From assembly GCA_963744145.1 (NCBI GenBank), contig CAVUSO010000001.1:5984001-6048000 (forward strand): DNA of 64,000 bases. The letters run 5' to 3'. This document shows, in pieces, positions 15,718-30,308 of the stretch. The DNA comes from an uncultured cyanobacterium. Its GTDB lineage: Bacteria > Cyanobacteriota > Cyanobacteriia > Cyanobacteriales > CAWUOF01. The notes below the pieces were generated by a model. That model searched no databases. It was not told where the DNA came from and worked only from the letters and a program-made list of their open reading frames with translations. Each line of letters starts with the position of its first letter. Within the stretch, counting starts at the first letter, position 1. The position numbers and the translations under genes are program-made.

Positions 15718-16737
15718 ATGCGAACCATACTATTATACTTAAGCTTATTTGGGATCATATTTTCCCCATCTTTGGGACTAGCTCAGTCACTTCCTACTTC
15801 CCAAACCCCCAAATATGGACATGATGCTCCACCTCAAAACAGTCCTCTACCCCAGGAAAGCGTCCCAGAAGTAAATGATTATCGGATTACAGCTTTACAG
15901 AAAGATTTTTTAGGAAATCTTTGGGTAGGTTCTTGGCAAGGATTAGCGCAAATTAACCCAAATACTGGTAACATCATCAAAAGAATTACCCTTCCTAATA
16001 CTACGATCGGAGCATTAACCCAAGATAAATCTGGGAGAATTTGGGTAGGAACTTTTGAGGGTTTATTACGAGTTGATCCCCGAGTTAATAAGGTGACAGC
16101 CCAAAATATTAACTTACCTTCAGAACGGATTTTGTCACTTTTAATTGATCAACGTGGTTATTTGTGGGTAGGGGGAGATCGGGGGTTAGCTTTAGTTAGT
16201 CCAGATCAAGGTTTAACGATGACTACGGTCAAAAAATTACCTGGTGTCAGTGCTAATGCTCTCACATTAGATCGTAATGGTTCTGTTTGGGTTGGTACTC
16301 TAACTGGATTAGTCAAGATTAATAGTAGTAATGCTCTAATTCTGGATCAGGTTACTAACTTATCTGGGGTGACAGTCCAAGCTTTAGTAACAAGTCCTAA
16401 AGGTACAATTTGGGTGGGAACAACTAACAGTTTGCTAGAAATTGATCCTAATTCCGGCAATGTTTTACAATCAGTAGATGAATTAGCAGGTAGTAATATT
16501 AAATCGCTCCGTTTTGATAGTGCTGATAGTCTTTGGGTAGGTACAGATAATGGTTTATTTCGGTTTTTCCCCAGTGTGAAAAAAGTAGTTGGTCAAATTC
16601 CTAATCTTCCTTCTAGTCGGGTTTTATCTTTATCTCCAGATACAGGTAATAAATTATGGGTAGGAACAACAGAAGGACTTGCTTGGGTAAGTATGACAAC
16701 TTGGAAAGCTAAGTCACTTGTACCTTTTGCTCGTTGA
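15718..16737 (+). CDS. Secreted beta-propeller protein (two-component regulator propeller repeats)
   Basis: Signal peptide; repeated DxxGxLWVGTxxGL motifs. Confidence 0.85.
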   Translation: MRTILLYLSLFGIIFSPSLGLAQSLPTSQTPKYGHDAPPQNSPLPQESVPEVNDYRITALQKDFLGNLWVGSWQGLAQINPNTGNIIKRITLPNTTIGALTQDKSGRIWVGTFEGLLRVDPRVNKVTAQNINLPSERILSLLIDQRGYLWVGGDRGLALVSPDQGLTMTTVKKLPGVSANALTLDRNGSVWVGTLTGLVKINSSNALILDQVTNLSGVTVQALVTSPKGTIWVGTTNSLLEIDPNSGNVLQSVDELAGSNIKSLRFDSADSLWVGTDNGLFRFFPSVKKVVGQIPNLPSSRVLSLSPDTGNKLWVGTTEGLAWVSMTTWKAKSLVPFAR

Positions 16738-16796
16738 TCAGCATCGATCGGTTAAAATACAGCGTATTTGTGAATAACTAAGTTTTTGTTAAATTT

Positions 16797-17423
16797 ATGA
16801 AAATTGCAATCATTTCTGATATTCATGGAAATTGGTCTGGGTTGAGTACGGTGTTAGATGATATTAAATTACGTCAAATCGAGCAAATTATTTGTTTAGG
16901 TGATGTAGTTGATGGGGGAGATGAAAATGATACAGTTGTGGATTGGTTGAAAGCAAATAATATCTCTACTGTCCAAGGAAATCACGATCAGAGTTATGAT
17001 TGTCGTCTGTCACCAGAGAATAGAGATTGGTTAAGTCATCTTCCTCGAATAATTGTGAAAAATGATGTTTGCTTTACTCATATTTCTCCAAGAGTTAAGC
17101 AAACAAAAGTTACTAATAATATCGAAGCTTGGAATATATTTGATGAGACTGATTACCGATTATGTTTTATTGGACATATTCATTTTCCAGCTCTATTTGG
17201 AGCTGAAAATGAAGAATTTGGAGAATCCCGTTCCTACGAAGTTGATCAAGGTTATTACCATCTAAATTCAGCCGATCGCTATATCATTTCCTTTGGAGCG
17301 ATCGGCTATCCTCGTGGAGGTGGAAAATTTATTCGCTACGGGATTTTTGATTCTAATCAGAACAGTGTCGAATTTATTAAATTACAGGGAACACTTTTGC
17401 CTTATGGCTTATGTTCTTATTGA
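16797..17423 (+). CDS. Metallophosphoesterase (calcineurin-like)
   Basis: SDIHGN, LGDVVD, GNHD, GHIH motifs. Confidence 0.9.
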   Translation: MKIAIISDIHGNWSGLSTVLDDIKLRQIEQIICLGDVVDGGDENDTVVDWLKANNISTVQGNHDQSYDCRLSPENRDWLSHLPRIIVKNDVCFTHISPRVKQTKVTNNIEAWNIFDETDYRLCFIGHIHFPALFGAENEEFGESRSYEVDQGYYHLNSADRYIISFGAIGYPRGGGKFIRYGIFDSNQNSVEFIKLQGTLLPYGLCSY

Positions 17424-17442
17424 AAATATTAATTCTGGTAAA

Positions 17443-18603
17443 TTAGTATTCTTGCTCCCAATGATCAGAAAACCCATACTCTTCCAGCTTGCTATTGCGT
17501 CGAATATCACAAGTTGCACAGTGGAAAGAGCCACCAAAGCTATAAAAGTGTCGGAAATCAACCGGAATAACCTGAAATCCTAACTTTTGCAAAAGCTTCT
17601 GAGTTGCTTCTTCCTGTCTTTCGACAATAATCCGTTCTGGATCTAAACTGAGAATATTCATGCTCACCCACTTACTCGCGATCGGAAGGTGCCAATAGTC
17701 TGGAGTAGCTGGAGGTGCTGTCTCAATCAAATCCCAACCAGCTTTCTTAAACAGTTCACTATGTTCAGGAGGACGGATCGGATTAATCAAAGCTAATCCC
17801 GGTTTAAGTGGTACTAAGGAAGCGTCTATGTGCATCGGGTTGAAATCTTTGAACTTGATGATATGTACTCGGTACTGTTTACCTAAGTGCTGTCTCAACC
17901 AGGTGATCCCCATCATATTAGTGACATGACTACGCTGGACAAAAATATCACGCCCAAAACGGACCAGATCAGCCGCATCAAAACAGGGTTCAAACTCAGT
18001 AGTTACATACTTACCTTTGCTCACTAATAATTCTTGCTCTTCTGGAGACATGGCGGCAAACTCAAAATCGTAGAGTTCGTCAGACATCAAAGGTTTCGGT
18101 GCAGTTGTCCATCTAGCTCCTGTTAAAAGATACTCCTTCATTAAAGAACGGTAAGCTCGGTATTCAAAAAATCGCGATCGCCATGCCATTGGTGCTTCAA
18201 TAATTTCATTTCCAATCACAATTAACAGATCGCGGGGCATAGCTGCGTACATTCCTGTAGCAGCAAAATCTGGAGTTTGATAAGTTTGAGAAAAGTCGAT
18301 TAGAGCTGGTCGTCGAACCGTAACTCCTTCTTCTGCTAAGATATGGCAAAACTCATCTAATTCCCGTGACGCTGCTTTTACCAGTTCTTCAGGAAAAGGA
18401 CGCCCACCTTGCTTTTGAAAAAACTCCCAGTATTTAGAAGGGGCATCTACCTTAACATTGGCTTCAAAATGAGGTATAGTAGCGCCTTCAACGTGACCAA
18501 CAATTACTTCTTGGAGAGTATCCCATTCGTTATAACTGTTGACGATCGGCAGTTTCTGGGTGAAACCTGTTACTTTAATTTCGGCAGAATAATTTGTTGG
18601 CAA
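17443..18603 (-). CDS. Amidinotransferase (glycine amidinotransferase / CyrA-like family)
   Basis: NSYNEWDTLQEVIVG, MPRD, RSRFFEYRAYR, FDAAD, MHID, GGSFHCATCD (catalytic Asp/His/Cys). Confidence 0.92.
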   Translation of the reverse strand: MPTNYSAEIKVTGFTQKLPIVNSYNEWDTLQEVIVGHVEGATIPHFEANVKVDAPSKYWEFFQKQGGRPFPEELVKAASRELDEFCHILAEEGVTVRRPALIDFSQTYQTPDFAATGMYAAMPRDLLIVIGNEIIEAPMAWRSRFFEYRAYRSLMKEYLLTGARWTTAPKPLMSDELYDFEFAAMSPEEQELLVSKGKYVTTEFEPCFDAADLVRFGRDIFVQRSHVTNMMGITWLRQHLGKQYRVHIIKFKDFNPMHIDASLVPLKPGLALINPIRPPEHSELFKKAGWDLIETAPPATPDYWHLPIASKWVSMNILSLDPERIIVERQEEATQKLLQKLGFQVIPVDFRHFYSFGGSFHCATCDIRRNSKLEEYGFSDHWEQEY

Positions 18604-18881
18604 ATTAATATTCCCGACAAATCCATTATTAGTAGTTATACAATACTCCGGACACTTTGCTGAGAGAAAATGGTTTATAGGTATAATTGACCAACCAATG
18701 ATTTTTGGCTAATAGTCAAAAATCAGACTTGAGCCACTGAGATCACCAAAAAAATATCGATCGTGAGAGAATAAACCCATGTAAATTCGACCCGACCGAT
18801 AATCATGAATTTTCTAGAAAACATCTTAACTCGACTCGCCGGGATTAGTAAAGCCCAAACCAAATTTTTCTGTAGGGCAAA

Positions 18882-18926
18882 CTTCGACTACGCGAGCAGG
18901 TAAACGAGCGGGTAAACTCAGGGTAA
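18882..18926. repeat. Small dispersed repeat CTTCGACTACG|CTCAGGGTAA interrupted by two 12-nt units
   Basis: CTTCGACTACG[CGAGCAGGTAAA][CGAGCGGGTAAA]CTCAGGGTAA; related to 59067..59114. Confidence 0.6.
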
Positions 18927-19019
18927 TCGTTTCAGCAATTATTTACTTGCCGAAACGCTCCCATCTCCTACATTTAACTGAACTGTATTGATCTATATTA
19001 TCTATAAAACTATCTTTGT

Positions 19020-20354
19020 CTAATTAGGGTTTACTCCTGATGCGCTATCAACAGCCATTGTTCTCCGCTCAATCATTTCTAATAACAAGTATCTGCTTAG
19101 ATATGATTTAATCTTAGGTTGGATAACCAGCTCTAGAAAACTTGATAATGATATTGTGATCATAATCCAAATTAATAAACCTAGTAAAAAACTCAAACCT
19201 GTTCCCTGCCAAGGCAAGTATTTATTCATTAGGATCGCGATCGGCATATGTAATAGATAGAAAGCATAAGAGATCCGACCCATAAAAGTCATTTTTTTTA
19301 AGCTGTTAACTGATGTATCATATTTAACCAATATAATTGCAAGTATAGTGGCCAAAGATGCTACTACCAATTGTGGACTTTGAAAAACATATCCCTTCCA
19401 AATTATCCAAACCAGGTAAAAGATAGGCAGCAAGAAACAGAGTAAACGCCAATAAATAAAACCATAAAAATAGCGACCTGTGATTTCACAGATTATTAAT
19501 ATACAGATTGGTAGAATTGTGAGGTCAGCCAGACTGACCATACCAGAAAAAACTGGATAGTTTAAAATCAATTTACATGTGAAAAAATGATTGGTAGCAT
19601 GAAATAATAAAATATAGCTAATCAGAGGAAAAAAGGATTTTTTCTGACTAGAAGGTGGTACTTTCCATGATAATAATAATCCACTCAACCAAAAAATCCA
19701 TCCGGACGCATAACTAGAAATAAATTGTGGAAATGACGGCAGAAACCAGCCAATAACACTGATGAGAAGAGTACCTAAAAATAAATCTAAGATTTTAGGT
19801 CGCAACCACCAGACTAAAATAAAGACAAAGTAATATAGAATTTCGTAATTTAAACTCCATACAGCTACATTACTTGCTAAAGGAGGTAGGGAAAAAGAAA
19901 AGTATTTATCAAAATTTTGTAAGAAAAATAAATTTCCTAAAACTAGGTTTAATTTTTCATTCGGTTTAGCTAATACTGCCAAACAAATAGCAATGAAATA
20001 AATTGGTAAAATTCTCATGGCACGGCGTAATATATAATTATGAACCTGCTGAATTGAGAACTCTTTTGTGGTCGTTAAGCCAATGACATAGCCGGAGAGA
20101 ACAAAGAATAGTAAAACCGCACTATGTGCTGCTGGTAAGTAGCCAAAATAAATATTGGGATGGTAGGTAGGGTCTAAAAAATTTTTGAGAAATAAAACAT
20201 GAAATAATGCCACTGATAATGCAGCAAGTCCTCTAATACCCTCTAAGTTAAAGTCATAGCTTGAATTTTTTTCTAAGGAGCAATCACTTCTATTATTAGG
20301 TTCTATTTTTGCATTAATTTTCAGATTTTGCAACCAAGTTTTAAACGTTTTCAT
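19020..20354 (-). CDS. Acyltransferase family 3 (membrane O-acyltransferase)
   Basis: LEGIRGLAALSVALFH, VLLFFVLSGYVI, WSLNYEILYY, GRISYAFYLLH; start uncertain (ATG 20354, or 20390 per ORF track). Confidence 0.88.
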   Translation of the reverse strand: MKTFKTWLQNLKINAKIEPNNRSDCSLEKNSSYDFNLEGIRGLAALSVALFHVLFLKNFLDPTYHPNIYFGYLPAAHSAVLLFFVLSGYVIGLTTTKEFSIQQVHNYILRRAMRILPIYFIAICLAVLAKPNEKLNLVLGNLFFLQNFDKYFSFSLPPLASNVAVWSLNYEILYYFVFILVWWLRPKILDLFLGTLLISVIGWFLPSFPQFISSYASGWIFWLSGLLLSWKVPPSSQKKSFFPLISYILLFHATNHFFTCKLILNYPVFSGMVSLADLTILPICILIICEITGRYFYGFIYWRLLCFLLPIFYLVWIIWKGYVFQSPQLVVASLATILAIILVKYDTSVNSLKKMTFMGRISYAFYLLHMPIAILMNKYLPWQGTGLSFLLGLLIWIMITISLSSFLELVIQPKIKSYLSRYLLLEMIERRTMAVDSASGVNPN

Positions 20355-20579
20355 GAATTGAGCCAGGATTGAGAACAATGTATTTATCAATGGGGCGATC
20401 GCCTAAGATTCAGCAAAAACTATAACAGCATCAAGTACCAAGGCATAAACTGCAACATTGCGAGGATAATCAAGGTGTGATATGATGTCAAGGGCTGAGT
20501 CCTAATTCATCAAATCTAGTCTCAGCTTTTTTTTCGGCTTTGTCTAGTCTGTGAAACTAATTTTAAATAAGGAGGTAGG

Positions 20580-21497
20580 ATGAATAACCTAAATATAGAA
20601 AATATTTATGCCTCGCGCGTCAATTCAAAATTTACCATTATCGATCGCCAAGAGCCAATTATCTACAGCAATAATCTACCACCTGCATCGTTAAAGCCGG
20701 AACAAGTCCAGTTCTACTCTGACAACGGATTCCTTTTGATGGAAGGTTTTTTTAGTTCTCAAGAGGTAGAGATTTTCCGTCGAGAAGTGGAGCAACTAGC
20801 TACTTGTGAGGAAATCAAAAAGGCAGGAATAAGATTTACTGAAGGTGAAAGCGATATCCTGCGGTCTATCTATTGGATCCACGAACTTAGTCACCTATTC
20901 AAGCAGTTATCCCTAGATAAACGTATCCTTGATATTGTCTACTATTTTCTCAATGATCGGGTGTATATTCATCAGTCACGTATCAATTTCAAGCCAGCTT
21001 TTTCAGGTGGAAATTTCTACTGGCATTCGGATTTTGAAACCTGGCATGTCGAGGATGGAATGCCAAAAATGCGTGCAGTGAGTGCGATGATTACACTGAC
21101 CGAAAATACAGAACTTAATGCTCCATTAATGGTAATTCCCGGTTCTCACAAAAAGTACATCAGCTGTGTGGGAGCCACACCAGCAGAATACTATAAAGAG
21201 TCGTTGAAGTCGATGAAACGAGAAGATTATGGTGTTCCCGACCAAGCTAGTATCACACAACTGGCTGAAGAAAATGGTATTGTAGCCATAAAAGCAGCCG
21301 CAGGTTCCCTCATCTTTTTCGATTGCAACATTCTACATGGGTCAAATAACAACATCTCCCCCTATCCGCGTACTAATCTTTTCTTTATCTATAATAGTCT
21401 GGAGAACGCGTTGCAAAAACCATTTGGGGGACTCAAACCAAGACCTGAATTTCTCGCCACAAGAGAAAACATTAAACCTCTAAATAATTTAACTTGA
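20580..21497 (+). CDS. Ectoine-hydroxylase-like Fe(II)/2-oxoglutarate dioxygenase (PhyH superfamily)
   Basis: Full EctD signature FYWHSDFETWHVEDGMP and HGSNNNISPYPR; strong SD AAGGAGG. Confidence 0.88.
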   Translation: MNNLNIENIYASRVNSKFTIIDRQEPIIYSNNLPPASLKPEQVQFYSDNGFLLMEGFFSSQEVEIFRREVEQLATCEEIKKAGIRFTEGESDILRSIYWIHELSHLFKQLSLDKRILDIVYYFLNDRVYIHQSRINFKPAFSGGNFYWHSDFETWHVEDGMPKMRAVSAMITLTENTELNAPLMVIPGSHKKYISCVGATPAEYYKESLKSMKREDYGVPDQASITQLAEENGIVAIKAAAGSLIFFDCNILHGSNNNISPYPRTNLFFIYNSLENALQKPFGGLKPRPEFLATRENIKPLNNLT

Positions 21498-21541
21498 TGA
21501 TATCCTTGGAGCCATAACAATTTACTTGTCAAAATCTCGCA

Positions 21542-21592
21542 TAATGGTTAAGCTTTGATCCATTGTATAAGCTAACCAAAACTTAACCATTA
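21542..21592. repeat. Intergenic inverted repeat (possible stem-loop inside the cluster transcript)
   Basis: TAATGGTTAAGCTTTG / CAAAACTTAACCATTA, 15 of 16 complementary. Confidence 0.5.
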
Positions 21593-21800
21593 AGCTAGTA
21601 TTCAAAAAACTTCGGTGACGCGAATGTTCAATTTGACAGATATTTTTGTAGGGGCGTATTGCTATACGCTCATACTTGATCGTTTACTGATTCAATCAAT
21701 GCTCTTTTTCTGAGAGGTTTGAGGATAAATCTGTCAAAACCAACTTGATCAGCATGGAAAAAAGCCACAATTAATTTTTTATTAAAAAAGGAGGGTAATT

Positions 21801-22820
21801 GTGATCTTAGCTCAAGCAGAAACTGTGGGAATTTCCGCAATTGGTTACTATATTCCTGAAAAAAGAATGACTTGTGAAGATATTGCCAAGTTAGCCAATA
21901 TACCTGTTTCTATGATAATCGAAGAGGTGGGGGTAGAAAAAAAACCAATTGCTGCTGAAAATGAGCATCCCAGTGATATGGGGGTCAAAGCAGCACAGGA
22001 TGCGATCAAAAAAGCGGGAATTAAACCAGAAGAAATCGATCTAATTGCCTATTGTGGTGCAGGAGACTATGATTATAGACATTGGTCACCCTCTGCTAAA
22101 ATTCAGAATGAAATTGGTGCCAAAAATGCTGTCCATGCTTTTGAAATCAGAAATGGTTGCCAAAGTGGGATATTAGGTATTTATATTTGTCAGAATCTAT
22201 TACTAGCAGATCCTGAAATAAATTGCGCTCTAGTCATTTGTAGTGATAAATTTTCCCATAACATGATTGATTATTCTGATCTAGAATTTTTAGATCAGTT
22301 TCGCTGTGCTGATGGGGCTATAGCAGTTATCCTAAAAAAAGGAGAAGGAAATAATAGAATTCTTGGTTACTCTGCGATCGTTCAGGGAGAATATGCTGAT
22401 GGACAGTGTATCCAGTTAGGAGGAACTAAGTTTAATTGGAAAGATTACAACAACAAAAGTGGTTACCTAAAACAACTGGTCAAAACAGATGAAATAAAAA
22501 CTGGGATAATTTTTTTACTAAATTACATTAAGGTAATTCAAAAAGTTCTTGAGAAAAGTAAATATACAAAAGCAGATATTGATTGGTTATTTACTAATCA
22601 AATTTCTGTCAATTTATCTCAGCAAATAATAAGTGCGATGGGATTAAAGATTGAACAAACAATGTTGTCTATGAGAGAATACGGTCATTTAGGAGCAGGA
22701 GATCCCTTGTTTGGCTTGGTAAAAATGATCGAGGTTAATCAAATAAAACCAGGAAATTTGGTGGTATTAGCTAGTAGTGGTAATAGAGTATCCTGGGGAG
22801 CAATGACAATTAAATTTTAA
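21801..22820 (+). CDS. KAS-III (FabH)-like condensing / acyl-transfer enzyme
   Basis: GISAIGYYIP, NGCQSG catalytic Cys, DGAIAV, GNRVSWGAM; GTG start after SD AGGAG. Confidence 0.88.
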   Translation: MILAQAETVGISAIGYYIPEKRMTCEDIAKLANIPVSMIIEEVGVEKKPIAAENEHPSDMGVKAAQDAIKKAGIKPEEIDLIAYCGAGDYDYRHWSPSAKIQNEIGAKNAVHAFEIRNGCQSGILGIYICQNLLLADPEINCALVICSDKFSHNMIDYSDLEFLDQFRCADGAIAVILKKGEGNNRILGYSAIVQGEYADGQCIQLGGTKFNWKDYNNKSGYLKQLVKTDEIKTGIIFLLNYIKVIQKVLEKSKYTKADIDWLFTNQISVNLSQQIISAMGLKIEQTMLSMREYGHLGAGDPLFGLVKMIEVNQIKPGNLVVLASSGNRVSWGAMTIKF

Positions 22821-22857
22821 TTTTTGACTTGTAATAGATTGATTCTAGAGGAACAAT

Positions 22858-23106
22858 ATGACAGAAATAAAAGCCCAAATTCGCCAAATAGTGATTGAAA
22901 TACTGCCCCAAGTTAAAGATGCAGAAAATCTAGATGAACTAGATATTTTTAGTCAAGGATTAACTTCGATCAATGCGATGAGCTTGGTGGTAAAATTGCA
23001 AAATTTATTTGGGATTCAATTTGATGCCAATGAAATTAATATAGAAGACTTTAAAACTATAGTCAATATGGTAAATTTGGTTGAGCAAAAACAAAAGATT
23101 AGGTAA
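22858..23106 (+). CDS. Acyl / peptidyl carrier protein
   Basis: 82 aa acidic protein; GLTSINAMSL phosphopantetheine-site-like motif; between KAS-III and AMP-ligase. Confidence 0.85.
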   Translation: MTEIKAQIRQIVIEILPQVKDAENLDELDIFSQGLTSINAMSLVVKLQNLFGIQFDANEINIEDFKTIVNMVNLVEQKQKIR

Positions 23107-23151
23107 TTACAAATAAATCGAGGAAAAAAATTAGATATTGGGGAAATTATT

Positions 23152-24678
23152 GTGCTGAATCAAATGTTAAAAAAGACCGTAGCTCGGTTTCCCGAAAAAA
23201 TTGCGTTGGTTTGTGGGGAGTTAAGGATAACTTATGGAGAGCTTGACAATCAAGTTGAAAGATTTAGTCAGGGTTTGACTGAAATAGGAGTTAAGCACTC
23301 TGATTGTGTGGCTTTAATTCTACCCAACTGCCCAGAGTTCGTGATTAGTTTCTATGGGATTGCCAGAATAGGTGCGATCGCCCTGTTCCTTAATCCCTCC
23401 TGCAAAGAAAATGAACTCGAAAATTACATCTGCGATAGTAACCCGATCGCGATCATTACTGATATTACTAGAGCTGCCATTTGCAGTCATTTAATTTCTC
23501 AACTCGATCGCCAAGTTCATTTAATTGTAGTAGGGGGAGAGCATCCATTAGGTCATACCTTTAATGATCTGCTTGTCCGGGAAGTAGAAATATTTGAGCA
23601 ACCGCAGTTCCATGAAGGTGATGTTCTCTACCAATACTCATCAGGATCGACTGGAAAACCCAAAAGAGTCTGTCGTACTCAAAAAAACATCTTCCATGAA
23701 GCAAATAACTGTTTCCTGACCCAAAAAATTACTGAATTTGACAATATTTTTTGCCTTGTACCCTTTTATCATGCTTACGGATTTGGACAATGCCTACTAG
23801 CAGCCACTTATTCAGGAGCAACTTTGGTAATTTTAGAACCATGTTGGCAAAATGGCAAGATCATAGAGCAACCATTTATTTTTAGACAAGCTCGGGTATT
23901 GGAGGTGATCGCGCAAGAGAAAATTACAATTTTGCCTGCTATTCCTTATATCTATAGTGTTTTAGCAGCAATCCCTGCAAGTACACCAACAGACTTATCG
24001 ACCTTAAGATTATGTATTTCAGCTGGTAATTTTCTGCCCAAAGATATTTTCGATCGATTCTATACCCGATTTGGAATTACGATCCGACAGCTTTATGGCT
24101 GTACCGAAGCTGGTGCTGTTGCCATTAATATGCAGAATGGAGCTAATATTAAATACGATTCCATTGGTTTGCCGATGAAAAACGTAGAAATCAAGATCAT
24201 GGATGAAGCCGAACAGGAGTTACCAACAGGAACAGTAGGAGAAATAGCGCTCAAAAGTCAAACCCTGACCCTTAGTTATGATCATCATCCCGATGCTAGC
24301 CAAGCAGCATTCAAAAATGGCTACTTTTTGACAGGCGATTTAGGTAAAAAAGATGAAGATGGTTATCTCTACATTACAGGTCGCAAAAAGTTTTTAATTG
24401 ATACAGGAGGATATAAAGTCAATCCCTTAGAAGTAGAAACTGTTTTAATAGAGCATCCCAAAATTAGTGAAGTGGTTGTGGTCGGAGTTGCTACTCCTCA
24501 TACAGGACAATTGGTAAAAGCGGTTATTGTTGCTAAAGGAGATTGCCGAGAACAAGATATTTTTGACTACTGTCAGGATAAGTTAGCAGAGTTCAAAGTT
24601 CCTAAGATAGTTGAATTTCGTCAGGAAATTCCTAAGAGCCCGATGGGAAAGATTTTGAGAGAAAAGCTGTCTAGTTAA
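23152..24678 (+). CDS. Class I adenylate-forming enzyme (acyl-AMP / CoA ligase)
   Basis: YSSGSTGKPK, YGCTE, TGDLG, GRKK, PKSPMGKILR. Confidence 0.92.
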   Translation: MLNQMLKKTVARFPEKIALVCGELRITYGELDNQVERFSQGLTEIGVKHSDCVALILPNCPEFVISFYGIARIGAIALFLNPSCKENELENYICDSNPIAIITDITRAAICSHLISQLDRQVHLIVVGGEHPLGHTFNDLLVREVEIFEQPQFHEGDVLYQYSSGSTGKPKRVCRTQKNIFHEANNCFLTQKITEFDNIFCLVPFYHAYGFGQCLLAATYSGATLVILEPCWQNGKIIEQPFIFRQARVLEVIAQEKITILPAIPYIYSVLAAIPASTPTDLSTLRLCISAGNFLPKDIFDRFYTRFGITIRQLYGCTEAGAVAINMQNGANIKYDSIGLPMKNVEIKIMDEAEQELPTGTVGEIALKSQTLTLSYDHHPDASQAAFKNGYFLTGDLGKKDEDGYLYITGRKKFLIDTGGYKVNPLEVETVLIEHPKISEVVVVGVATPHTGQLVKAVIVAKGDCREQDIFDYCQDKLAEFKVPKIVEFRQEIPKSPMGKILREKLSS

Positions 24679-24680
24679 AT

Positions 24681-26231
24681 CTAACGAACAAGTCCTTCCA
24701 GCAACTCAATCACCGCTGCAACTGCTGTATACATTGCACCCTGAATCGAAGCATGATTAATAGCCAAATGTTCTCCAGCAAAAAAAACACGAGGCTTTTC
24801 TAGAGGATAAGACTGACATAGCAGACTTTGATAGCGCTCTTGTTCTCCAGGTGCAAAAAAAGCATAAGCTCCTGAACCTACTTGAGTTTTTTCATCCCAA
24901 ATACAATGAATCACGTCATCAACATAACGATCAATTTGGGAATGTAGTTGTTTAACCTCAGCTAAAGTCAAGTCAGTTCGTTTACCCTCTTCAAGAGATA
25001 GAAAATGCCGTACATTACTATCCCAACGGTAAGCAGCAGTAAAAGCTGTTGGTTGATGGGAAATTTCCGGATCTTGCGCTACCCAGCACAACTTTTCTGT
25101 CTGGGAGTCTGCTAAAATAGCATTATCCGAAGGATACCAGCATTTTTCCATTGGCAAATCCGTAAAACTGCCCCCACCATAAATATGATCGTAAAGTTCC
25201 CAAGGACGAGCAGTACAGTGAAAGATTGTTTTAGCTGCATTGCTGTAACCCAGACCACAAATAGCCTGTATTTTATTTGCTGGGAGAGGAGGATAGAACT
25301 CTATTCTTGCTAGAGCAGTAGCGGGAACTGTACAAATCACATAGTCAAATTCTTGCTCTTTCTTGCTACCCAAATTATCCCAACCAACTCGAACTCCTTG
25401 GTCGGTCATCTGCAATAGATTTACCTTAGCATTACGCTCAATTTTTCCTGGTAAACGTTCTACAAAAGCTTTTACCAAGGTTTCCATACCACCAACAAGC
25501 TGATATTGTTCAGCCTGATACCAAGCAAAGAAATCAATTAATCCACTCCAGACAGAAATTTCGTCATAATAAATCATTCCCGTCGCACGACCTACCAGTT
25601 CAAAAGCATCAGGAGAAAGGCGATCGCGAAAATATTGGCTAAAAGTTAGCCTATTATATTCCTTTAATTTACCACTGGTAAAAGTTGGCGAAAATATTTC
25701 CCACTTTTCTCGATCAGAAAGACAATCTAATAATTCCTTTAAAATATTTTCATACAAAACTCGAGGATCAATAGATTCGGCTGGGTCGAGATGGTAAACT
25801 GAAAAAAGTTTTTGAAACTGATTAAGACGAGCTTTTTGACCGCGCAAATAATAAAAAGCATTGGGATTGTAATTGACAAAACTACCCTTGGATAAATTAA
25901 ATTTTTCCACATAATGTAGCACACAGCTATGATTGATCGGAATACGCATCGCTCCGAGTTCCCCATAGCTTCCATCAGAAAAATAATGGGTATAAATGCG
26001 CCCTCCCAAACGATGAGAAGCTTCTAAAATGGTTACCTCATAACTCAGTTGACTTAATTCATAAGCCGCAGTCAGCCCAGCAATACCACCCCCAATAATA
26101 CCAACTTGCAAGCGATCGCCACCAGGGTCTTTTGCCTTGAGAGAATTTGGGTGTTGATAGAGTTCAGCAAAGGAAAAAGGGTGATCGGGCTTTTGGGTAT
26201 GACGATAGATATGAAAATTTGATGAGGACAT
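24681..26231 (-). CDS. Flavin amine / L-amino-acid oxidase family
   Basis: GGGIAGL dinucleotide fold, LEASHRLGGR, ELGAMRIP, FAGEH; ATG 26231 chosen as start (uncertain). Confidence 0.88.
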   Translation of the reverse strand: MSSSNFHIYRHTQKPDHPFSFAELYQHPNSLKAKDPGGDRLQVGIIGGGIAGLTAAYELSQLSYEVTILEASHRLGGRIYTHYFSDGSYGELGAMRIPINHSCVLHYVEKFNLSKGSFVNYNPNAFYYLRGQKARLNQFQKLFSVYHLDPAESIDPRVLYENILKELLDCLSDREKWEIFSPTFTSGKLKEYNRLTFSQYFRDRLSPDAFELVGRATGMIYYDEISVWSGLIDFFAWYQAEQYQLVGGMETLVKAFVERLPGKIERNAKVNLLQMTDQGVRVGWDNLGSKKEQEFDYVICTVPATALARIEFYPPLPANKIQAICGLGYSNAAKTIFHCTARPWELYDHIYGGGSFTDLPMEKCWYPSDNAILADSQTEKLCWVAQDPEISHQPTAFTAAYRWDSNVRHFLSLEEGKRTDLTLAEVKQLHSQIDRYVDDVIHCIWDEKTQVGSGAYAFFAPGEQERYQSLLCQSYPLEKPRVFFAGEHLAINHASIQGAMYTAVAAVIELLEGLVR

Positions 26232-26239
26232 TGAGAAAA

Positions 26240-27196
26240 ATGAAAATCCTTTTATGTACGAAGCGTGATTCTTTTCTAGTAGATTTACTAGCATCCCAAT
26301 TATCAGATTGTCAAATTATAGCTTGCTCTACTGACACCGCGATCGAGCATTTAGATGGTGTGGATGTAATCATTCCATACTTTGCTACTATTGATGCCTT
26401 AATGATTAATTCTGGAAAATTCGGGTTAATTCAGCAGTTTGGTGTAGGTTTAGATGCTGTAAATATTGAAGCTGCTACCCATGCAGGGGTATGGGTAGCA
26501 AGAGTACCGGGAAAGATTTCTGGCAATGCCGATTCCGTTGCTGAATACGCCATCATGCTAATGTTAATGCTATCACGACCAATAACCATAGTGAGGCCAA
26601 GATTAAACTCTAATAAATGGAGTCAACAAAAAAGCATTGCCTTATTTAAAAAAACAGCCTGCATTGTGGGACTCGGTGATATTGGTACAGCACTAGCAGT
26701 ACGTCTAAAAGCTTTTGGAATGCGTCTAGTTGCTGTTCGACAACACTCCGAACGCGGAGCATCTCCAGAAACAGGAATAGAACGAGTTTATGGAGCTGAT
26801 GCTCTGACCGAAGCTTTATCAGATGCTGACTATGTAATCTTGTGTGCTTACTATCAAAAAAATAATCATCATTTGATTAATAGTGTCACCCTGGCAGCCA
26901 TGAAACCAGGAGCATTTCTGATCAACGTGGCTCGTGGTGGTTTAGTAGATACAGATGCTTTGTCAGCGGCACTAGCAAGGGGTCATTTGGCAGGTGCAGG
27001 TCTTGATCTAGTTGACTCTCCCACAGATGCTCTTTTCCAACACAACGTCATTGTTACTCCTCATATTGCTGGTGTTACTGACTTGGCTGACCAAGGAATA
27101 ACGGCTGTGGTAGTTGATAACATTAAACGCTATATCCGAGGAGAACAGCCATTGTATGCAGTTAACGCACCTGATCATCTGCGACGCTTGTTATGA
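26240..27196 (+). CDS. D-isomer-specific 2-hydroxyacid dehydrogenase
   Basis: GVGLDAVN, SVAEY, GLGDIG, NVARGG, TPHIAG; start moved to MKILLCT. Confidence 0.9.
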   Translation: MKILLCTKRDSFLVDLLASQLSDCQIIACSTDTAIEHLDGVDVIIPYFATIDALMINSGKFGLIQQFGVGLDAVNIEAATHAGVWVARVPGKISGNADSVAEYAIMLMLMLSRPITIVRPRLNSNKWSQQKSIALFKKTACIVGLGDIGTALAVRLKAFGMRLVAVRQHSERGASPETGIERVYGADALTEALSDADYVILCAYYQKNNHHLINSVTLAAMKPGAFLINVARGGLVDTDALSAALARGHLAGAGLDLVDSPTDALFQHNVIVTPHIAGVTDLADQGITAVVVDNIKRYIRGEQPLYAVNAPDHLRRLL

Positions 27197-27268
27197 TTAT
27201 TTAGCAAGGTTTTGGACTTGCTTGAGCTCGTCCCAGTTTCTTCCACCTTTTTTTTCAGAGCAATACCG

Positions 27269-28222
27269 ATGAACGATCTAGTAGACAAGTCTCAAAACTC
27301 CTGGCTTACCCTAACAACAATAAAAGCGATCGCTGCTTTAGCGATTACACAGCTAGCGATCGGTTCAGTGCCAGTTCTCATTAGATTATCAGAAGATGAA
27401 ATTAGCCCAAATGCGACTATTTTTAACCGACTACTGATTGGGACAGCCTTGTTAGCGCTGTGGAATGTTTTATTTAAGATCGGTCGTAAATTTTTAGGCA
27501 ATCAGCCCATAGAAGCAACCCAACAATCATACTCAAAGGAGGTAATATGGCTATTACTAGCACTAGGATTTTGTATTGCGGGCTATCAAATAGTTTGGGC
27601 TTGGTCTCTCACTCAGACCAGTATTGCTAATTCAGCATTGATGCACAGTTTACTTCCTTTGTTCACTGCTTCAATTGGTATCCTTTTCTTCAGTCAGCAA
27701 TTAGATCGCCCCTTAGCCCTGGGCACAACAATTGCGATCGCTGGAGCTTTCGGTGTCGCACTCAACGATCTGCAAATTGACCCTGACAAACTCCTAGGTG
27801 ATGCGATTGCGTTAATGTCAGCTTTACTAACTGCCTTATGTCTGTTAATTGCAGAACAACTGCAAAAAAAATTAAACACGACCACAATAGTGAGCTGGTC
27901 TTGTGCAATTGGAACTATATTAAATCTACCTCTTGTTATCCTAATTGGAGATGAAATCTTTCCTTCTTCTTGGAGTGGATGGAGCGAAGTAATTGGTTTA
28001 GCTTTAACCCTTGTAATCAGTCAAGGATTAGTCATCTATAGCTTAAAAAGATTATCGCCAAGTTTTGTTGCTGTAGCCTTTCTGTTCGATCCAGCTATTG
28101 CTGCTATCCTTGGCTGGACAATTTTTTCAGAAAGTTTAAATTCCTATAATCTCTTAGGTTTTATTATCGTGTTGTTAGGGATGTATATAACCACCTTAAG
28201 CAAATATGCACTTAAGGTTTAA
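27269..28222 (+). CDS. DMT / EamA-family transporter
   Basis: About 10 hydrophobic segments in two EamA-like halves; LLGDAIAL; start moved to ATG 27269. Confidence 0.88.
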   Translation: MNDLVDKSQNSWLTLTTIKAIAALAITQLAIGSVPVLIRLSEDEISPNATIFNRLLIGTALLALWNVLFKIGRKFLGNQPIEATQQSYSKEVIWLLLALGFCIAGYQIVWAWSLTQTSIANSALMHSLLPLFTASIGILFFSQQLDRPLALGTTIAIAGAFGVALNDLQIDPDKLLGDAIALMSALLTALCLLIAEQLQKKLNTTTIVSWSCAIGTILNLPLVILIGDEIFPSSWSGWSEVIGLALTLVISQGLVIYSLKRLSPSFVAVAFLFDPAIAAILGWTIFSESLNSYNLLGFIIVLLGMYITTLSKYALKV

Positions 28223-28268
28223 TCGCTTTCCCAATCCTCTTATTCAAGTAGAATTCCCTTGAGTATAC

Positions 28269-29333
28269 TCAAGGGTTGCCATCCATACAGCTAACATATT
28301 TCAAGACATATCCAATTACCAAATTTGTCGGATCGACTTGGAAATCAACAGATTCTTTTTTAATAATTTCAAATCCAGCGCTAGTAAAAATTTCAGTCCA
28401 TTTCTGATCAGTAGCTAGTTTTTGGTTGGTGAATGAATGGAGTAAGAAATAAGGGTTATAAAATCCTAGCCCTACTGGAGATTTCATCACTTCTTCATTA
28501 TCAATTGCATAATCAACCTCAATTACATGAAGATAGCTGTGGGGAAACTTTTTGCCAATATTGCGAATAAATTCAATCAAAATATCTTCTCCTGCTTGAC
28601 CATATATTTCTTGGAGAACAAACCAAAATAAAATAAAGTCAGGAATCTCATTCATTTCATAATCAAGAGCAGCACTATTCACTAAAATTATCCGATCTTG
28701 CATTTTCTTTTCGATCACCAAATTGAGTCCAGCTTGATATGCTCCCTCATCAGGCTCAATACCAATTGCTTTAATATTTGGATTTTGGTGACAAAATTCA
28801 CATAATCCCAAGGCACTACCACAACCATAATCAATGATCAAACTGGTGGTAGGTTTGATTTCCGCCATCATTTTTTTAGCCAAAGGAAAGACATCATTTT
28901 GAGAAATTTGGCAAGCACCAATTCCGACCCATTTACCATTTCTTGATACATAGTTTGTGCCATGTTTTAAAATATTAGAAATATTAGAAAATATCGGTGA
29001 ATAACCTCCGACCAACAGATGAAAAAATCCCTGATAGTAAATACTAATTTGGTCACCATAATGAGAAATACGAAAACTGATTTGGTCATTTTCTAAGGTA
29101 CTTTTCTCTAAAATTCCTTCTAGTGCTAGATATTCAAACAAGGCTCGCAATAGGTTAGGGTCAAATCCTTTTTCTTCTGCAATAGTCTTGATATCTAATC
29201 CATCTTTCAACATGGAAAAAATTCCTTCTTTGAGCAGATCGTAAATTACTTGACTAGCTACAAAACCTCTGAGATAGCCAAGAGATTTCTCTAAACCAGG
29301 AAGGAAATCATTACTAATTATCATCTTAGACAT
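28269..29333 (-). CDS. SAM-dependent methyltransferase resembling 2-ketoarginine C-methyltransferases (MrsA / ArgN type)
   Basis: IDYGCGS SAM motif; LLVGGY, GIGACQISQNDVFP, FVLQEI and GLGFYNPYFLLH match my recollection of that family (not searched). Confidence 0.72.
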   Translation of the reverse strand: MSKMIISNDFLPGLEKSLGYLRGFVASQVIYDLLKEGIFSMLKDGLDIKTIAEEKGFDPNLLRALFEYLALEGILEKSTLENDQISFRISHYGDQISIYYQGFFHLLVGGYSPIFSNISNILKHGTNYVSRNGKWVGIGACQISQNDVFPLAKKMMAEIKPTTSLIIDYGCGSALGLCEFCHQNPNIKAIGIEPDEGAYQAGLNLVIEKKMQDRIILVNSAALDYEMNEIPDFILFWFVLQEIYGQAGEDILIEFIRNIGKKFPHSYLHVIEVDYAIDNEEVMKSPVGLGFYNPYFLLHSFTNQKLATDQKWTEIFTSAGFEIIKKESVDFQVDPTNLVIGYVLKYVSCMDGNP

Positions 29334-29335
29334 TA

Positions 29336-30124
29336 TTATTTTTCCTTAGATTCAGGATATTGTCCGGTTCTAACTTCGAGCGCAAATTGGGCGATCGCTT
29401 GCTCAATTATTTCTCGTAAATTAGCATAAGCTTTAGCAAAGGGAGGTAGATGATCCGAAAACCCTAATAAATCGTGGGTAACTAGGATTTGACCATCGCA
29501 ATGGGGTCCAGCACCGATTCCGATCGTCGGGATCGTTAATTTTTGGGTAATTTCTAATCCTAATTCATCCGGAATATGTTCTAAAACGAGCGCAAAAGCA
29601 CCTGCTTGTTCTAAAGCGATCGCTTCGGTTAAAATTCGTTCTCCAGCTTCTTTAGTTTTTCCTTGTTGACGATAACCGAGTTTATGGACAGATTGGGGAG
29701 TTAATCCCAGATGTCCTAACACAGGTATCCCAACTTCTACTAGCTGATTGACCGTTTCGGCGATCGCGGGATATCCACCTTCTAATTTTACTGCTTGTGC
29801 GCCAGTTTCTTTTAATACTCGACCGGCGGAATGTTTAGCTTGTTCAATACTTTCTTGATAGGTTAAAAACGGTAAATCTACTACTAATAATGCCTGATTG
29901 ACTCCCCGTCGAACTGCTTTAGCATGGTGGAGCATCTCTTCGAGAGTTAAGGGTAAGGTAGTTTTCATCCCTAACGCTACCATCGCGAGAGAATCTCCAA
30001 CTAAAATCAAGTCAACACCTGCTCGATCTAATAATTGCGCGATCGCATAATCCCAAGCAGTTAGTGCTACAATCGAGCGTCCTTGCTGTTTCCATTGAAT
30101 AAGTTGCTGGGTGGTGATAGTCAT
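29336..30124 (-). CDS. panB: 3-methyl-2-oxobutanoate hydroxymethyltransferase
   Basis: [32 protein letters not shown]. Confidence 0.97.
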
Positions 30125-30282: not shown

Positions 30283-30308
30283 AAAAAATCAGAGCTATGT
30301 AGCTCTGA
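30283..30308 (-). terminator. Intrinsic terminator
   Basis: Minus strand TCAGAGCT-ACAT-AGCTCTGA followed by TTTTTT. Confidence 0.75.

What the first reader, a model, noticed from the sequence alone, without database searches (positions are those of the whole stretch)
17443..29333. Unassigned guanidino-acid biosynthetic cluster without NRPS/PKS megasynthases
Seen: ten contiguous genes - amidinotransferase, acyltransferase-3, EctD-like dioxygenase, KAS-III-like enzyme, ACP, AMP-ligase, flavin amino-acid oxidase, 2-hydroxyacid dehydrogenase, DMT exporter and a 2-ketoarginine-type methyltransferase. Known: amidinotransferases act in the cylindrospermopsin (CyrA), saxitoxin (SxtG) and phaseolotoxin (AmtA) pathways; MrsA / ArgN methylate C3 of 2-ketoarginine. 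Inference: three enzymes point to guanidine or amidine substrates. A plausible route makes a modified guanidino acid, adenylates it onto the ACP, transfers it via the KAS-III-like enzyme to an acceptor, then hydroxylates, acylates and exports the product. The gene set matches no cyanobacterial pathway I can recall.
Basis: partly seen in the sequence, partly recalled or inferred. Interest (0 to 1): 0.85.

Follow-up and report, generated by a model that had tools for sequence, protein, structure and literature searches.

The report
Orphan cyanobacterial guanidino-acid gene cluster
Ten small enzyme genes, inserted together in one cyanobacterial genome, probably make and export a methylated, guanidine-bearing hydroxy acid joined to a second acid; no described pathway has this gene set and the product is unknown.

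Summary
All ten genes exist at the stated coordinates with the stated families. No NRPS or PKS lies in the 64 kb window. The block is an insertion: in 7 of 28 relatives' loci the flanking beta-propeller gene sits directly beside panB.

The whole gene set was not found together elsewhere. Only two pairs recur.

1. The amidinotransferase plus the MrsA-like C-methyltransferase, which form the two ends of the block, are neighbours in a Fischerella MAG (78% and 77% identity), a Solibacter MAG and a Desulfuromusa MAG. There they sit with a class I/II aminotransferase. In the window an L-amino-acid oxidase and a D-2-hydroxyacid dehydrogenase stand in its place.

2. The AMP-ligase and ACP belong to a cyanobacterial family that sits beside chorismate lyase or a chorismatase in 8 of 8 loci examined, which marks it as a hydroxybenzoate-loading family.

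So the guanidino reading is supported, but loading of the guanidino acid onto the ACP is not favoured. The KAS-III-like enzyme has Cys-Asn-His instead of Cys-His-Asn. The EctD-type enzyme is a true ectoine-hydroxylase-type protein in a genome without ectoine synthase.

Best reading: a mosaic, lineage-specific biosynthetic cluster. Main rival: neighbouring but unrelated units. I rate it a new variant of a known kind, of moderate interest.

The parts
16797..17423 (+). Metallophosphoesterase. It lies inside the inserted segment (between the beta-propeller gene and panB). Its role in the pathway is unknown.
   Evidence: Pfam Metallophos_2 E 1e-15; position relative to the propeller-panB synteny.
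17443..18603 (-). AGAT-type L-arginine amidinotransferase, at the left end of the cluster.
   Evidence: E 1.3e-143 to human AGAT. By my own count from the printed alignment, identity is about 62% over 367 residues. The NPMHID loop and the FHC cysteine motif are kept. 78% identical to the Fischerella MAG copy in L006.
18639..18999 (.). Intergenic dispersed repeat, MITE-like. Further repeat pieces lie at 20469-20567 and 21472-21656.
   Evidence: At least 7 further genome copies at 90-92% identity for a 135-base piece, and dozens of weaker copies.
19020..20390 (-). Membrane acyltransferase of the Acyl_transf_3 family; putative O-acylation step.
   Evidence: Pfam PF01757 E 4.5e-15; no NCBIfam hit.
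20580..21497 (+). Orphan EctD-type Fe(II)/2-oxoglutarate hydroxylase.
   Evidence: TIGR02408 345.3 bits against a cut-off of 336.5. E 6.4e-89 to ectoine hydroxylase 4mhr, with FYWHSDFETWHVEDGMP conserved. No EctC in the genome.
21801..22820 (+). KAS-III-like thiolase-fold enzyme with Cys120, Asn266 and His296.
   Evidence: Pfam ACP_syn_III and ACP_syn_III_C. Alignment to FabH structures places Asn at the His position and His at the Asn position. Conserved in 110, 108 and 106 of 110 relatives respectively.
22858..23106 (+). Stand-alone acyl/aryl carrier protein.
   Evidence: PP-binding E 4e-9. 42-50% identical to the ACPs next to the ligase relatives in 6 loci.
23152..24678 (+). Adenylate-forming ligase of the cyanobacterial hydroxybenzoate:carrier-protein ligase family, with an altered set of conserved residues.
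   Evidence: AMP-binding E 6e-76. Its 52-58% relatives sit beside chorismate lyase or chorismatase in 8 of 8 loci. 35 positions that are invariant in those relatives differ here. Best PDB hit is anthranilate-CoA ligase.
24681..26294 (-). FAD-dependent L-amino-acid oxidase. Takes the place of the aminotransferase of related cassettes.
   Evidence: Amino_oxidase E 2.4e-55. L-amino-acid oxidases are the best PDB hits.
26147..27196 (+). D-isomer-specific 2-hydroxyacid dehydrogenase; reduces a 2-oxo acid. The real start is probably downstream of 26147.
   Evidence: 2-Hacid_dh_C E 1e-42. A 34% relative lies two ORFs downstream of the methyltransferase in L009.
27212..28222 (+). EamA/DMT transporter; putative exporter.
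   Evidence: EamA E 3.7e-30, two repeats.
28269..29333 (-). MrsA/ArgN-like 2-oxo-acid C3-methyltransferase, at the right end of the cluster.
   Evidence: TIGR04543 310.7 bits, below the 425 cut-off. 8r4z E 1.1e-65; by my own count about 37% identity. 77-79% identical to Fischerella copies.
29336..30124 (-). panB, a housekeeping gene and not part of the pathway. It marks the right border; the methyltransferase starts 2 bases after its stop.
   Evidence: TIGR00222 361.7 bits. Single copy in the genome. Present in 39 of 41 relatives searched.

Best explanation
The region is a lineage-specific, mosaic biosynthetic cluster of discrete enzymes, inserted between a beta-propeller gene and panB.

Its two end genes, the AGAT-type amidinotransferase and the MrsA-like C-methyltransferase, are the signature pair of a small cassette seen in Fischerella, Acidobacteriota and Desulfuromonadota.

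Proposed route (all steps inferred):
1. The amidinotransferase moves the amidino group of arginine to an amine, most likely lysine, giving homoarginine. Alternatively arginine itself enters.
2. The L-amino-acid oxidase makes the 2-oxo acid.
3. The methyltransferase methylates C3.
4. The D-2-hydroxyacid dehydrogenase reduces C2, giving a 3-methyl-2-hydroxy guanidino acid.
5. Separately, the ligase loads a second acid onto the ACP. Judging by its family this is an aryl acid, but not plain 4-hydroxybenzoate.
6. The KAS-III-like Cys-Asn-His enzyme takes that acyl group and passes it on, most simply to the 2-hydroxyl as an ester.
7. The EctD-type hydroxylase and the Acyl_transf_3 protein tailor the product, and EamA exports it.

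Shown: the gene identities, the insertion, and the two recurring pairs. Inferred: all substrates, the order of steps, and the join between the two halves.
For: - The genes are confirmed.
- The segment is an insertion: a beta-propeller homologue lies within 1.5 kb of panB in 7 of 28 relatives' loci, and panB is single-copy here.
- The two end genes are 78% and 77% identical to adjacent genes of a Fischerella MAG. The pair also recurs in a Solibacter MAG and a Desulfuromusa MAG, so in 3 of 14 loci.
- A class I/II aminotransferase adjoins the methyltransferase in 9 of 11 annotated loci and lies one gene away, beyond the amidinotransferase, in a tenth (L010). The eleventh has a DAO-type oxidase instead. 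An oxidase can therefore fill that slot.
- L009 also carries a 2-hydroxyacid dehydrogenase and an EamA gene.
- The amidinotransferase keeps AGAT's catalytic motifs. Lysine-to-homoarginine amidinotransferases are documented (PMC4887976, abstract; PMC12833800, passages).
- Ligase and ACP are adjacent in 6 of 6 loci with enough flank (L031, L116-L120), and chorismate lyase or chorismatase is present in 8 of 8 loci.
- Cys120 is invariant in the KAS-III-like family.
- Rare accessory genes are packed with gaps of 2-416 bases and no housekeeping gene lies between them.
- Base composition is native: GC 37.8% against 39.4 +/- 1.65%, and tetranucleotide distance is at the genome median.
Against: - The full set was not found together in any other genome or contig searched.
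- The KAS-III-like relatives in two other cyanobacteria stand alone in unrelated contexts.
- Among the 120 ligase and 120 KAS-III relatives listed, the only shared longest-contig length is that of the window's own contig (a weak, indirect test).
- The genes lie in at least five transcription units of alternating direction, and dispersed repeats fill three intergenic gaps.
- No gene for an aryl acid lies in the cluster, and no BGC-type chorismate lyase was found in the genome at E 1e-8.
- The methyltransferase scores below the equivalog cut-off.
- The 57% EctD relative lies in a genuine ectoine locus.
- There are no expression data.
Confidence: 0.45

Rival explanations
1. Neighbouring but unrelated units in an insertion hot spot:
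(a) the amidinotransferase, oxidase, dehydrogenase, EamA and methyltransferase make and export a small methylated guanidino hydroxy acid on their own;
(b) the KAS-III-like enzyme, ACP and ligase serve a separate aryl or acyl pathway;
(c) the orphan EctD hydroxylates imported ectoine, and Acyl_transf_3 acetylates a surface glycan.
For: - Only the pairs recur elsewhere.
- Related cassettes in Fischerella, Solibacter and Desulfuromusa lack the ligase, ACP, KAS-III, EctD and Acyl_transf_3 genes.
- The EctD gene is bracketed by dispersed repeats, and its 57% relative is in an ectoine locus.
- The genes lie in five or more transcription units.
Against: - The two genes of the conserved pair lie at opposite ends of the block, so the other genes sit inside the cassette.
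- There is no housekeeping gene between them.
- Ten accessory genes, at least five of them rare in the phylum, lie in 12 kb.
- No ectoine synthase was found.
Confidence: 0.27
2. One reading: the modified guanidino acid itself is adenylated and loaded onto the ACP. The KAS-III-like enzyme then uses guanidino-acyl-ACP, either as a starter condensed with malonyl-ACP or as an acyl donor.
For: - The ligase differs from the 7 chorismate-lyase-linked relatives at 35 positions that are invariant in them, including 183 F->C, 205 H->Y and 285 F->I. These changes are shared with its closer 60-78% relatives.
- No aryl-acid supply gene lies in the cluster or was found in the genome.
- Guanidinobutyrate activation by an acyl-CoA ligase for polyketide starters is a precedent that I recall (azalomycin-type pathways); I did not check it here.
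Against: - All 8 relatives with known context are linked to chorismate-derived hydroxybenzoates.
- The best solved relative is an anthranilate ligase.
- None of the changes shared with the closest relatives adds an acidic residue that would suit a guanidinium. Only G350E, seen in the window and its nearest relative, adds one.
Confidence: 0.18
3. A catabolic or salvage island for arginine and other guanidino compounds: the oxidase gives 2-ketoarginine, followed by reduction and export, with no specialised product.
For: An arginine oxidase route to 2-ketoarginine is discussed for cyanobacteria (PMC2242806; search listing and abstract only).
Against: A C-methyltransferase, an ACP, an adenylating enzyme, a KAS-III-like enzyme and an exporter are biosynthetic, not catabolic, parts. 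No guanidinobutyrase or ureohydrolase is present.
Confidence: 0.04

Closest known systems
MrsA/MrsB (3-methylarginine, Pseudomonas syringae) and ArgN/ArgM (arginomycin): aminotransferase plus 2-ketoarginine C3-methyltransferase
   Same: The methyltransferase is homologous to the solved 2-ketoarginine methyltransferase (E 1.1e-65, about 37% identity). The logic is the same: make the 2-oxo acid, then methylate C3. Enzyme names and pathways are recalled.
   Different: It scores below the NCBIfam equivalog cut-off (310.7 against 425). There is no partner aminotransferase; an L-amino-acid oxidase and a D-2-hydroxyacid dehydrogenase stand there instead, so a hydroxy acid is expected rather than an amino acid. 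It is paired with an amidinotransferase, which the known systems lack.
Uncharacterised amidinotransferase-aminotransferase-methyltransferase cassette of Fischerella (L006; protein cluster includes Fischerella sp. PCC 9605)
   Same: The amidinotransferase and methyltransferase are 78% and 77% identical. They are the nearest relatives found among 5.8 billion proteins.
   Different: The Fischerella cassette has an aminotransferase, a PLP decarboxylase, a second methyltransferase and an SMR pump. It lacks the ligase, ACP, KAS-III, EctD, Acyl_transf_3, oxidase and dehydrogenase genes. I found no paper that describes it.
Ambigol-type hydroxybenzoate loading module (chorismate lyase, stand-alone ligase, ACP, C-T-TE, halogenases) of cyanobacteria
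   Same: The ligase is 52-58% and the ACP 42-50% identical to members of this module, and the two genes are adjacent in both.
   Different: The window has no chorismate lyase, DAHP synthase, C-T-TE or halogenase. The gene order is ACP then ligase. 35 positions that are invariant in the module's ligases are changed.
Oroidin (oro) genes of sponges: OroA amidinotransferase, OroE decarboxylase, OroD CoA ligase, OroG acyltransferase (PMC12833800; passages read)
   Same: It works alike: an AGAT-type enzyme builds a homoarginine-derived unit, and a ligase plus an acyltransferase join a separately activated (hetero)aryl acid to it, without an NRPS.
   Different: That system is animal, not bacterial. 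It forms an amide to homoagmatine, not a putative ester to a hydroxy acid. It has no C-methylation, ACP or thiolase-fold enzyme. Homology beyond the amidinotransferase family was not tested.
Cylindrospermopsin (CyrA) and saxitoxin (SxtG) pathways
   Same: Both use an AGAT-type amidinotransferase in a cyanobacterium. SxtG matches at E 4e-101.
   Different: There is no CyrB- or SxtA-type megasynthase in the 64 kb window. The enzyme is closer to vertebrate AGAT (E 1e-143) than to SxtG.
EctD ectoine hydroxylase
   Same: It passes the equivalog cut-off, matches 4mhr at E 6.4e-89 (identity was not computed here), and keeps the signature motif.
   Different: No ectoine synthase was found in the genome. 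It is embedded among guanidino-acid genes.

Membership tests
AGAT-type amidinotransferase | Full-length homology, with the catalytic Cys-His-Asp residues (human AGAT C407, H303, D254; numbering recalled). | tested here: met
   E 1.3e-143 over residues 10-376. The motifs FDAAD, NPMHID and FHC all align with the human enzyme.
AGAT-type amidinotransferase | Acceptor specificity (glycine, lysine or another amine). | not testable with these tools
   The Asn and Met of the NPMHID loop are as in AGAT. The link between these residues and specificity is recalled from work on CyrA. An enzyme assay is needed.
2-ketoarginine C3-methyltransferase (TIGR04543; MrsA/ArgN) | Score at or above the curated equivalog cut-off of 425 bits. 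| tested here: not met
   310.7 bits. It is homologous (8r4z, E 1.1e-65) but not an equivalog by NCBI's criterion.
2-ketoarginine C3-methyltransferase (TIGR04543; MrsA/ArgN) | Adjacent partner aminotransferase (MrsB/ArgM type). | tested here: not met
   None in the window. One adjoins the methyltransferase in 9 of 11 annotated related loci and lies one gene away in a tenth.
Ectoine hydroxylase EctD (TIGR02408) | Score above the curated cut-off, plus the signature motif. | tested here: met
   345.3 against 336.5 bits. FYWHSDFETWHVEDGMP is identical to 4mhr apart from the first two residues' context. The consensus itself is recalled.
Ectoine hydroxylase EctD (TIGR02408) | An ectoine supply (ectABC) in the same genome. 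| tested here: not met
   PF06339 found nothing in the genome, although that search also rang in none of the control genomes. A tblastn with the EctC of L129 also found nothing at E 1e-8.
FabH / KAS III | Cys-His-Asn catalytic triad. | tested here: not met
   Cys120 is kept. Asn266 aligns with the FabH His, and His296 with the FabH Asn. This holds in 108 and 106 of 110 relatives.
FabH / KAS III | NCBIfam FabH cut-off. | tested here: not met
   TIGR00747 138.9 against 292.1 bits. The best model, PRK06840, scores 254.2 against 315.
Hydroxybenzoate:carrier-protein ligase module (ambigol type) | Ligase and ACP adjacent. | tested here: met
   The genes lie 45 bases apart. The same pairing is seen in L031 and L116-L120.
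Hydroxybenzoate:carrier-protein ligase module (ambigol type) | Adjacent chorismate lyase or chorismatase, and a C-T-TE release enzyme. | tested here: not met
   Absent from the window. No hit to the lyases of L117 or L118 in the genome.
Cylindrospermopsin / saxitoxin clusters | A PKS or NRPS partner (CyrB, SxtA) near the amidinotransferase. | tested here: not met
   No such domains in any ORF of 450 aa or more in the window.

The most novel reading that the evidence does not exclude
The cluster encodes an NRPS- and PKS-independent assembly line for a new class of cyanobacterial guanidino depsides. A thiolase-fold enzyme with a swapped Cys-Asn-His triad esterifies a carrier-bound aryl acid to a 3-methyl-2-hydroxy-homoarginine-derived acid. 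An ectoine-hydroxylase-type enzyme has been recruited to hydroxylate a guanidine- or amidine-bearing intermediate instead of ectoine.

Beside this, the amidinotransferase plus MrsA-like methyltransferase pair would define an undescribed pathway to beta-methylated guanidino acids that is shared by several bacterial phyla.
Probability: 0.15. Interest if true: 0.8.

Novelty: new variant of a known kind. Interest (0 to 1): 0.5.

Why it matters
- Amidinotransferases were found in only 0.42% of cyanobacterial biosynthetic clusters in one preprint survey (10.64898/2026.09.06.749771, abstract). The described ones feed toxin megasynthases. This would be a route built only from discrete enzymes.
- The work also uncovers a recurring, undescribed pairing of an amidinotransferase with a 2-oxo-acid C-methyltransferase. 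It occurs in three phyla counting this genome (two cyanobacteria plus a Solibacter and a Desulfuromusa MAG). In Nannocystis and a Pseudomonadota MAG, argininosuccinate synthase/lyase homologues stand in its place.
- It shows that a whole family of KAS-III-like proteins has the His and Asn of the triad swapped.
- If the product is found, it offers new enzymes for beta-methylated guanidino acids, and a test case for how cyanobacteria assemble clusters from modules.
- The product and its activity are unknown.

Tried and rejected
- RNA evidence: no RNA holder was listed for window 19500-29400, so co-expression could not be examined and read laying was not used.
- Riboswitches: no Rfam family reached its gathering score in the window, L006, L009 or L010. 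Only one chance-level hit appeared in 16500-31800, so no guanidine riboswitch was seen.
- Promoter and terminator scans gave counts equal to shuffled sequence.
- No direct repeats flank the block.
- Island composition is native, so recent foreign origin is not supported.
Only 3 close loci came back.
- The Atlas look-up of the KAS-III-like protein gave only generic names.
- An earlier-findings look-up by place found nothing. The look-up by words gave unrelated amidinotransferase loci.
- Literature searches for the gene combination found nothing relevant.
- panB as a pathway member was rejected: it is single-copy and near-universal.
- MppJ-type phenylpyruvate methylation was rejected: MppJ matches at E 1e-4 against 1e-65 for the ketoarginine enzyme.
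- Supplements of the papers were not opened.

Full report
OBSERVATION

- The amidinotransferase (17443-18603, minus strand) matches human L-arginine:glycine amidinotransferase at E 1.3e-143. It also matches SxtG (4e-101), HsvA (1e-93) and StrB1 (6.6e-69). By my count from the printed alignment it is about 62% identical to the human enzyme over 367 residues. The motifs FDAAD, NPMHID and FHC are kept; the residue numbers D254, H303 and C407 are recalled.
- The other nine are: Acyl_transf_3; a PhyH/EctD-type dioxygenase; a KAS-III-like protein; a PP-binding carrier protein; an AMP-binding ligase; a flavin amine oxidase whose best solved relatives are L-amino-acid oxidases; a D-2-hydroxyacid dehydrogenase; an EamA transporter; and a methyltransferase whose only strong relatives are 2-ketoarginine methyltransferases (TIGR04543 310.7 bits; PDB 8r4z E 1.1e-65).
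- No ORF of 450 aa or more in the 64 kb window has NRPS or PKS domains. The phrase "without megasynthases" holds for the window.

BORDERS

- panB (29336-30124) passes its equivalog cut-off, is single-copy in the genome, and was found in 39 of 41 relatives searched. It is a housekeeping gene.
- I compared 28 loci of relatives, each holding panB with about 1.5 kb on either side. A homologue of the window's beta-propeller gene (15718-16737) lies next to panB in 7 of them: L134, L135, L137, L138, L139, L143 and L147.
- In this genome 12.6 kb separate the two genes. The segment 16797-29333 (a metallophosphoesterase plus the ten genes) is therefore an insertion.
- Its base composition is that of the genome. 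GC is 37.8% against 39.4 +/- 1.65% for windows of the same size, and 41% of genome windows are at least as far from the genome's tetranucleotide profile. It is not a recent foreign arrival.
- Three intergenic gaps hold dispersed repeats with many genome copies.

RARITY

Among sampled genomes of the same phylum:
- the methyltransferase was found in 0 of 400 others;
- the KAS-III-like protein at E<=1e-60 in 2 of 400, and in 1 of 150 of an order-level sample;
- the ligase at E<=1e-140 in 5 of 400;
- an EctD-type protein at 57% identity in 1 of 400, with five further hits at only 37-39%;
- the oxidase at E<=1e-50 in 1 of 190.

The only other genome of the same family shares nothing with the block except panB.

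WHAT RECURS ELSEWHERE: THE GUANIDINO HALF

- A search of 5.8 billion proteins gave 29 relatives of the methyltransferase. The nearest (79%) comes from Fischerella; the rest are at 53% or below.
- A scan of one genome per prokaryote species gave 14 loci. A tblastn of all window proteins against them found the amidinotransferase next to the methyltransferase in three: a Fischerella MAG (L006, 78% and 77%), a Solibacter MAG (L009) and a Desulfuromusa MAG (L010).
- None of the 14 loci holds a relative of the ligase, ACP, KAS-III-like protein, EctD-type protein, Acyl_transf_3 or oxidase.
- I annotated 11 of the 14 loci with Pfam; L013-L015 were not annotated. In 9 of the 11 a class I/II aminotransferase adjoins the methyltransferase. 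In L010 it lies one gene away, beyond the amidinotransferase. The eleventh, a Methanosarcinales MAG, has a DAO-type oxidase nearby instead. This is the known MrsB/MrsA or ArgM/ArgN arrangement (names recalled).
- In two Nannocystis genomes and a Pseudomonadota MAG, argininosuccinate synthase (and lyase) homologues follow the pair. These are another way to build a guanidino group.
- L009 also has an EamA gene and a 2-hydroxyacid dehydrogenase, 34% identical over 62% of the window's.
- The Fischerella cassette reads: SMR pump, amidinotransferase, aminotransferase, methyltransferase, PLP decarboxylase, second methyltransferase.
- In the window the amidinotransferase and the methyltransferase are the first and last genes of the block, and the aminotransferase is missing. 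An L-amino-acid oxidase and a D-2-hydroxyacid dehydrogenase are present instead. The expected output of this half is therefore a 2-hydroxy acid rather than an amino acid.

WHICH GUANIDINO ACID?

- The repeated pairing with an amidinotransferase argues that the substrate is not simply arginine.
- The enzyme keeps AGAT's loop.
- AGAT-type enzymes that turn lysine into homoarginine are documented: AmtA (PMC4887976, abstract), human AGAT (PMC9213308, abstract) and sponge OroA (PMC12833800, passages).
- The last paper cites a 2024 Toxicon report of a homoarginine gene in Fischerella sp. PCC 9339, which I did not read.
- I therefore favour homoarginine, with arginine as the fallback. This is inference.

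WHAT RECURS ELSEWHERE: THE CARRIER HALF

- The ligase has many cyanobacterial relatives at 52-78%.
- Context could be read for eight of them: three metagenome contigs (L031-L033) and five genomes (L116-L120).
- In seven the ligase sits beside a chorismate pyruvate-lyase. In four of those seven (L031, L116, L117, L119) a C-T-TE protein and a halogenase follow, and a DAHP synthase is present in five that were scanned. In the eighth (L120) the ligase is fused to an FkbO/Hyg5-type chorismatase domain.
- An ACP 42-50% identical to the window's is adjacent in all six loci with enough flank.
- The best solved relative is anthranilate-CoA ligase.
- This family therefore loads chorismate-derived hydroxybenzoates onto a free-standing carrier protein.
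- The window's ligase differs from the seven lyase-linked ligases at 35 positions that are invariant in them. These include 183 F->C, 205 H->Y and 285 F->I, and the changes are shared with its closer 60-78% relatives. From recall of 4-chlorobenzoate:CoA ligase, positions 183 and 205 line the aryl pocket; I did not test this.
- No BGC-type chorismate lyase was found in the genome.
- So the loaded acid is probably aryl, or at least not a guanidino acid, and it is not plain 4-hydroxybenzoate.

THE KAS-III-LIKE ENZYME

- Its best relatives reach only 56% identity.
- In the two other cyanobacterial genomes where it was found, it stands alone: next to hydrogenase genes in one, and next to sugar genes and a peptidase gene in the other.
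- Alignment to FabH structures keeps the catalytic Cys, but places Asn where FabH has His and His where FabH has Asn.
- Across 110 relatives the counts are Cys 110, Asn 108 and His 106.
- The window's copy has Ser where 107 of 110 relatives have Lys, three residues after the Asn.
- It fails all the FabH models.
- A thiolase-fold enzyme with an intact Cys next to an ACP gene most simply takes the acyl group from the ACP and passes it on. I cannot decide between transfer to an oxygen nucleophile and condensation with malonyl-ACP.

THE EctD-TYPE ENZYME

- It passes NCBI's ectoine-hydroxylase cut-off (345.3 against 336.5 bits), aligns over its full length with 4mhr, and has the signature FYWHSDFETWHVEDGMP.
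- The residues I recall as ectoine ligands (Gln127, Thr149, Trp150 and Arg280 of the Sphingopyxis enzyme) are conserved in that alignment.
- Its one 57% relative in the sample lies beside ectoine synthase and ectoine-degradation-like genes.
- This genome has no ectoine synthase by two searches. The first of these had no positive control.
- It is therefore either a passenger acting on imported ectoine, or it has been recruited for an ectoine-like cyclic amidine or guanidine.

ONE PATHWAY OR SEVERAL?

For one pathway:
- the conserved pair brackets the block;
- no housekeeping gene lies inside it;
- at least five phylum-rare genes sit within 12 kb;
- the chemistry fits together: a 2-hydroxy acid acceptor, an activated acid, an acyl-transferring thiolase-fold enzyme, a hydroxylase, an O-acyltransferase and an exporter.

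Against:
- the full set is seen nowhere else;
- there are at least five transcription units;
- repeats fill the gaps;
- no expression data exist (one search listed no RNA holder).

The remainder is for something I have not thought of, including a described cluster that I could not find.

COMPARISON AND NOVELTY

- It works like the MrsA/MrsB logic joined to an ambigol-type loading pair. In overall logic it resembles the sponge oroidin genes (amidinotransferase, ligase, acyltransferase).
- It is not a member of the cyr or sxt clusters. By NCBI's cut-off its methyltransferase is not an equivalog of the 2-ketoarginine enzyme.
- No paper with this gene set was found. The 2025 review of cyanobacterial guanidine pathways (outline, one section and search passages read) covers none like it.
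- MIBiG could not be queried.
- Verdict: a new variant of a known kind, with interest 0.5.

Noticed in passing
window 18639-18999, 20469-20567, 21472-21656: Dispersed intergenic repeats. A 135-base piece has at least 7 other genome copies at 90-92% identity, and dozens of weaker copies exist. They are probably MITE-like elements, and they bracket the EctD-type gene.
   Followed up: partly
window 21801-22820 and 110 relatives (P0030-P0149): A whole family of KAS-III-like proteins (cyanobacteria, methanotrophs and others) has Asn at the FabH His position and His at the FabH Asn position (108 and 106 of 110). I found no paper on this.
   Followed up: partly
L005 10300-14526, L007 11199-13094, L004 11945-13177: In two Nannocystis genomes and a Pseudomonadota MAG, the aminotransferase plus MrsA-like methyltransferase pair is followed by argininosuccinate synthase (and lyase) homologues. 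In L005 these are fused in one 1408-aa ORF. This suggests a second route to a methylated guanidino acid.
   Followed up: no
L006 5510-11151: The Fischerella MAG carries a compact operon: SMR pump, amidinotransferase, aminotransferase, MrsA-like methyltransferase, PLP decarboxylase and a second methyltransferase. It probably makes a methylated (homo)agmatine-type amine. I found no paper that describes it.
   Followed up: partly
L129 8667-16248: A cyanobacterial genome (G158) carries ectoine synthase and ectoine hydroxylase together with an ABC transporter and genes resembling the ectoine-degradation enzymes (an M24 creatinase-like protein and an AstE/AspA-like protein).
   Followed up: no
L160 771-9312: The only 57% relative of the oxidase (G137) lies near an Orn/Lys/Arg-decarboxylase-like gene, three methyltransferases, a cupin, a proline-3-hydroxylase-like gene and a transposase fragment. 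This is another small basic-amino-acid tailoring locus.
   Followed up: no
window 30125-31730: About 1.6 kb to the right of panB has no ORF of 70 aa or more on either strand, and no Rfam match.
   Followed up: partly
window 59218-60735: A second flavin amine-oxidase-family gene lies 33 kb from the cluster, beside a GT41-like glycosyltransferase.
   Followed up: no
window 26147-26294: The longest ORFs of the divergent oxidase and dehydrogenase genes overlap by 148 bases. Internal Met codons would leave only a few bases between the two starts, so the two promoters must lie inside each other's coding region.
   Followed up: no
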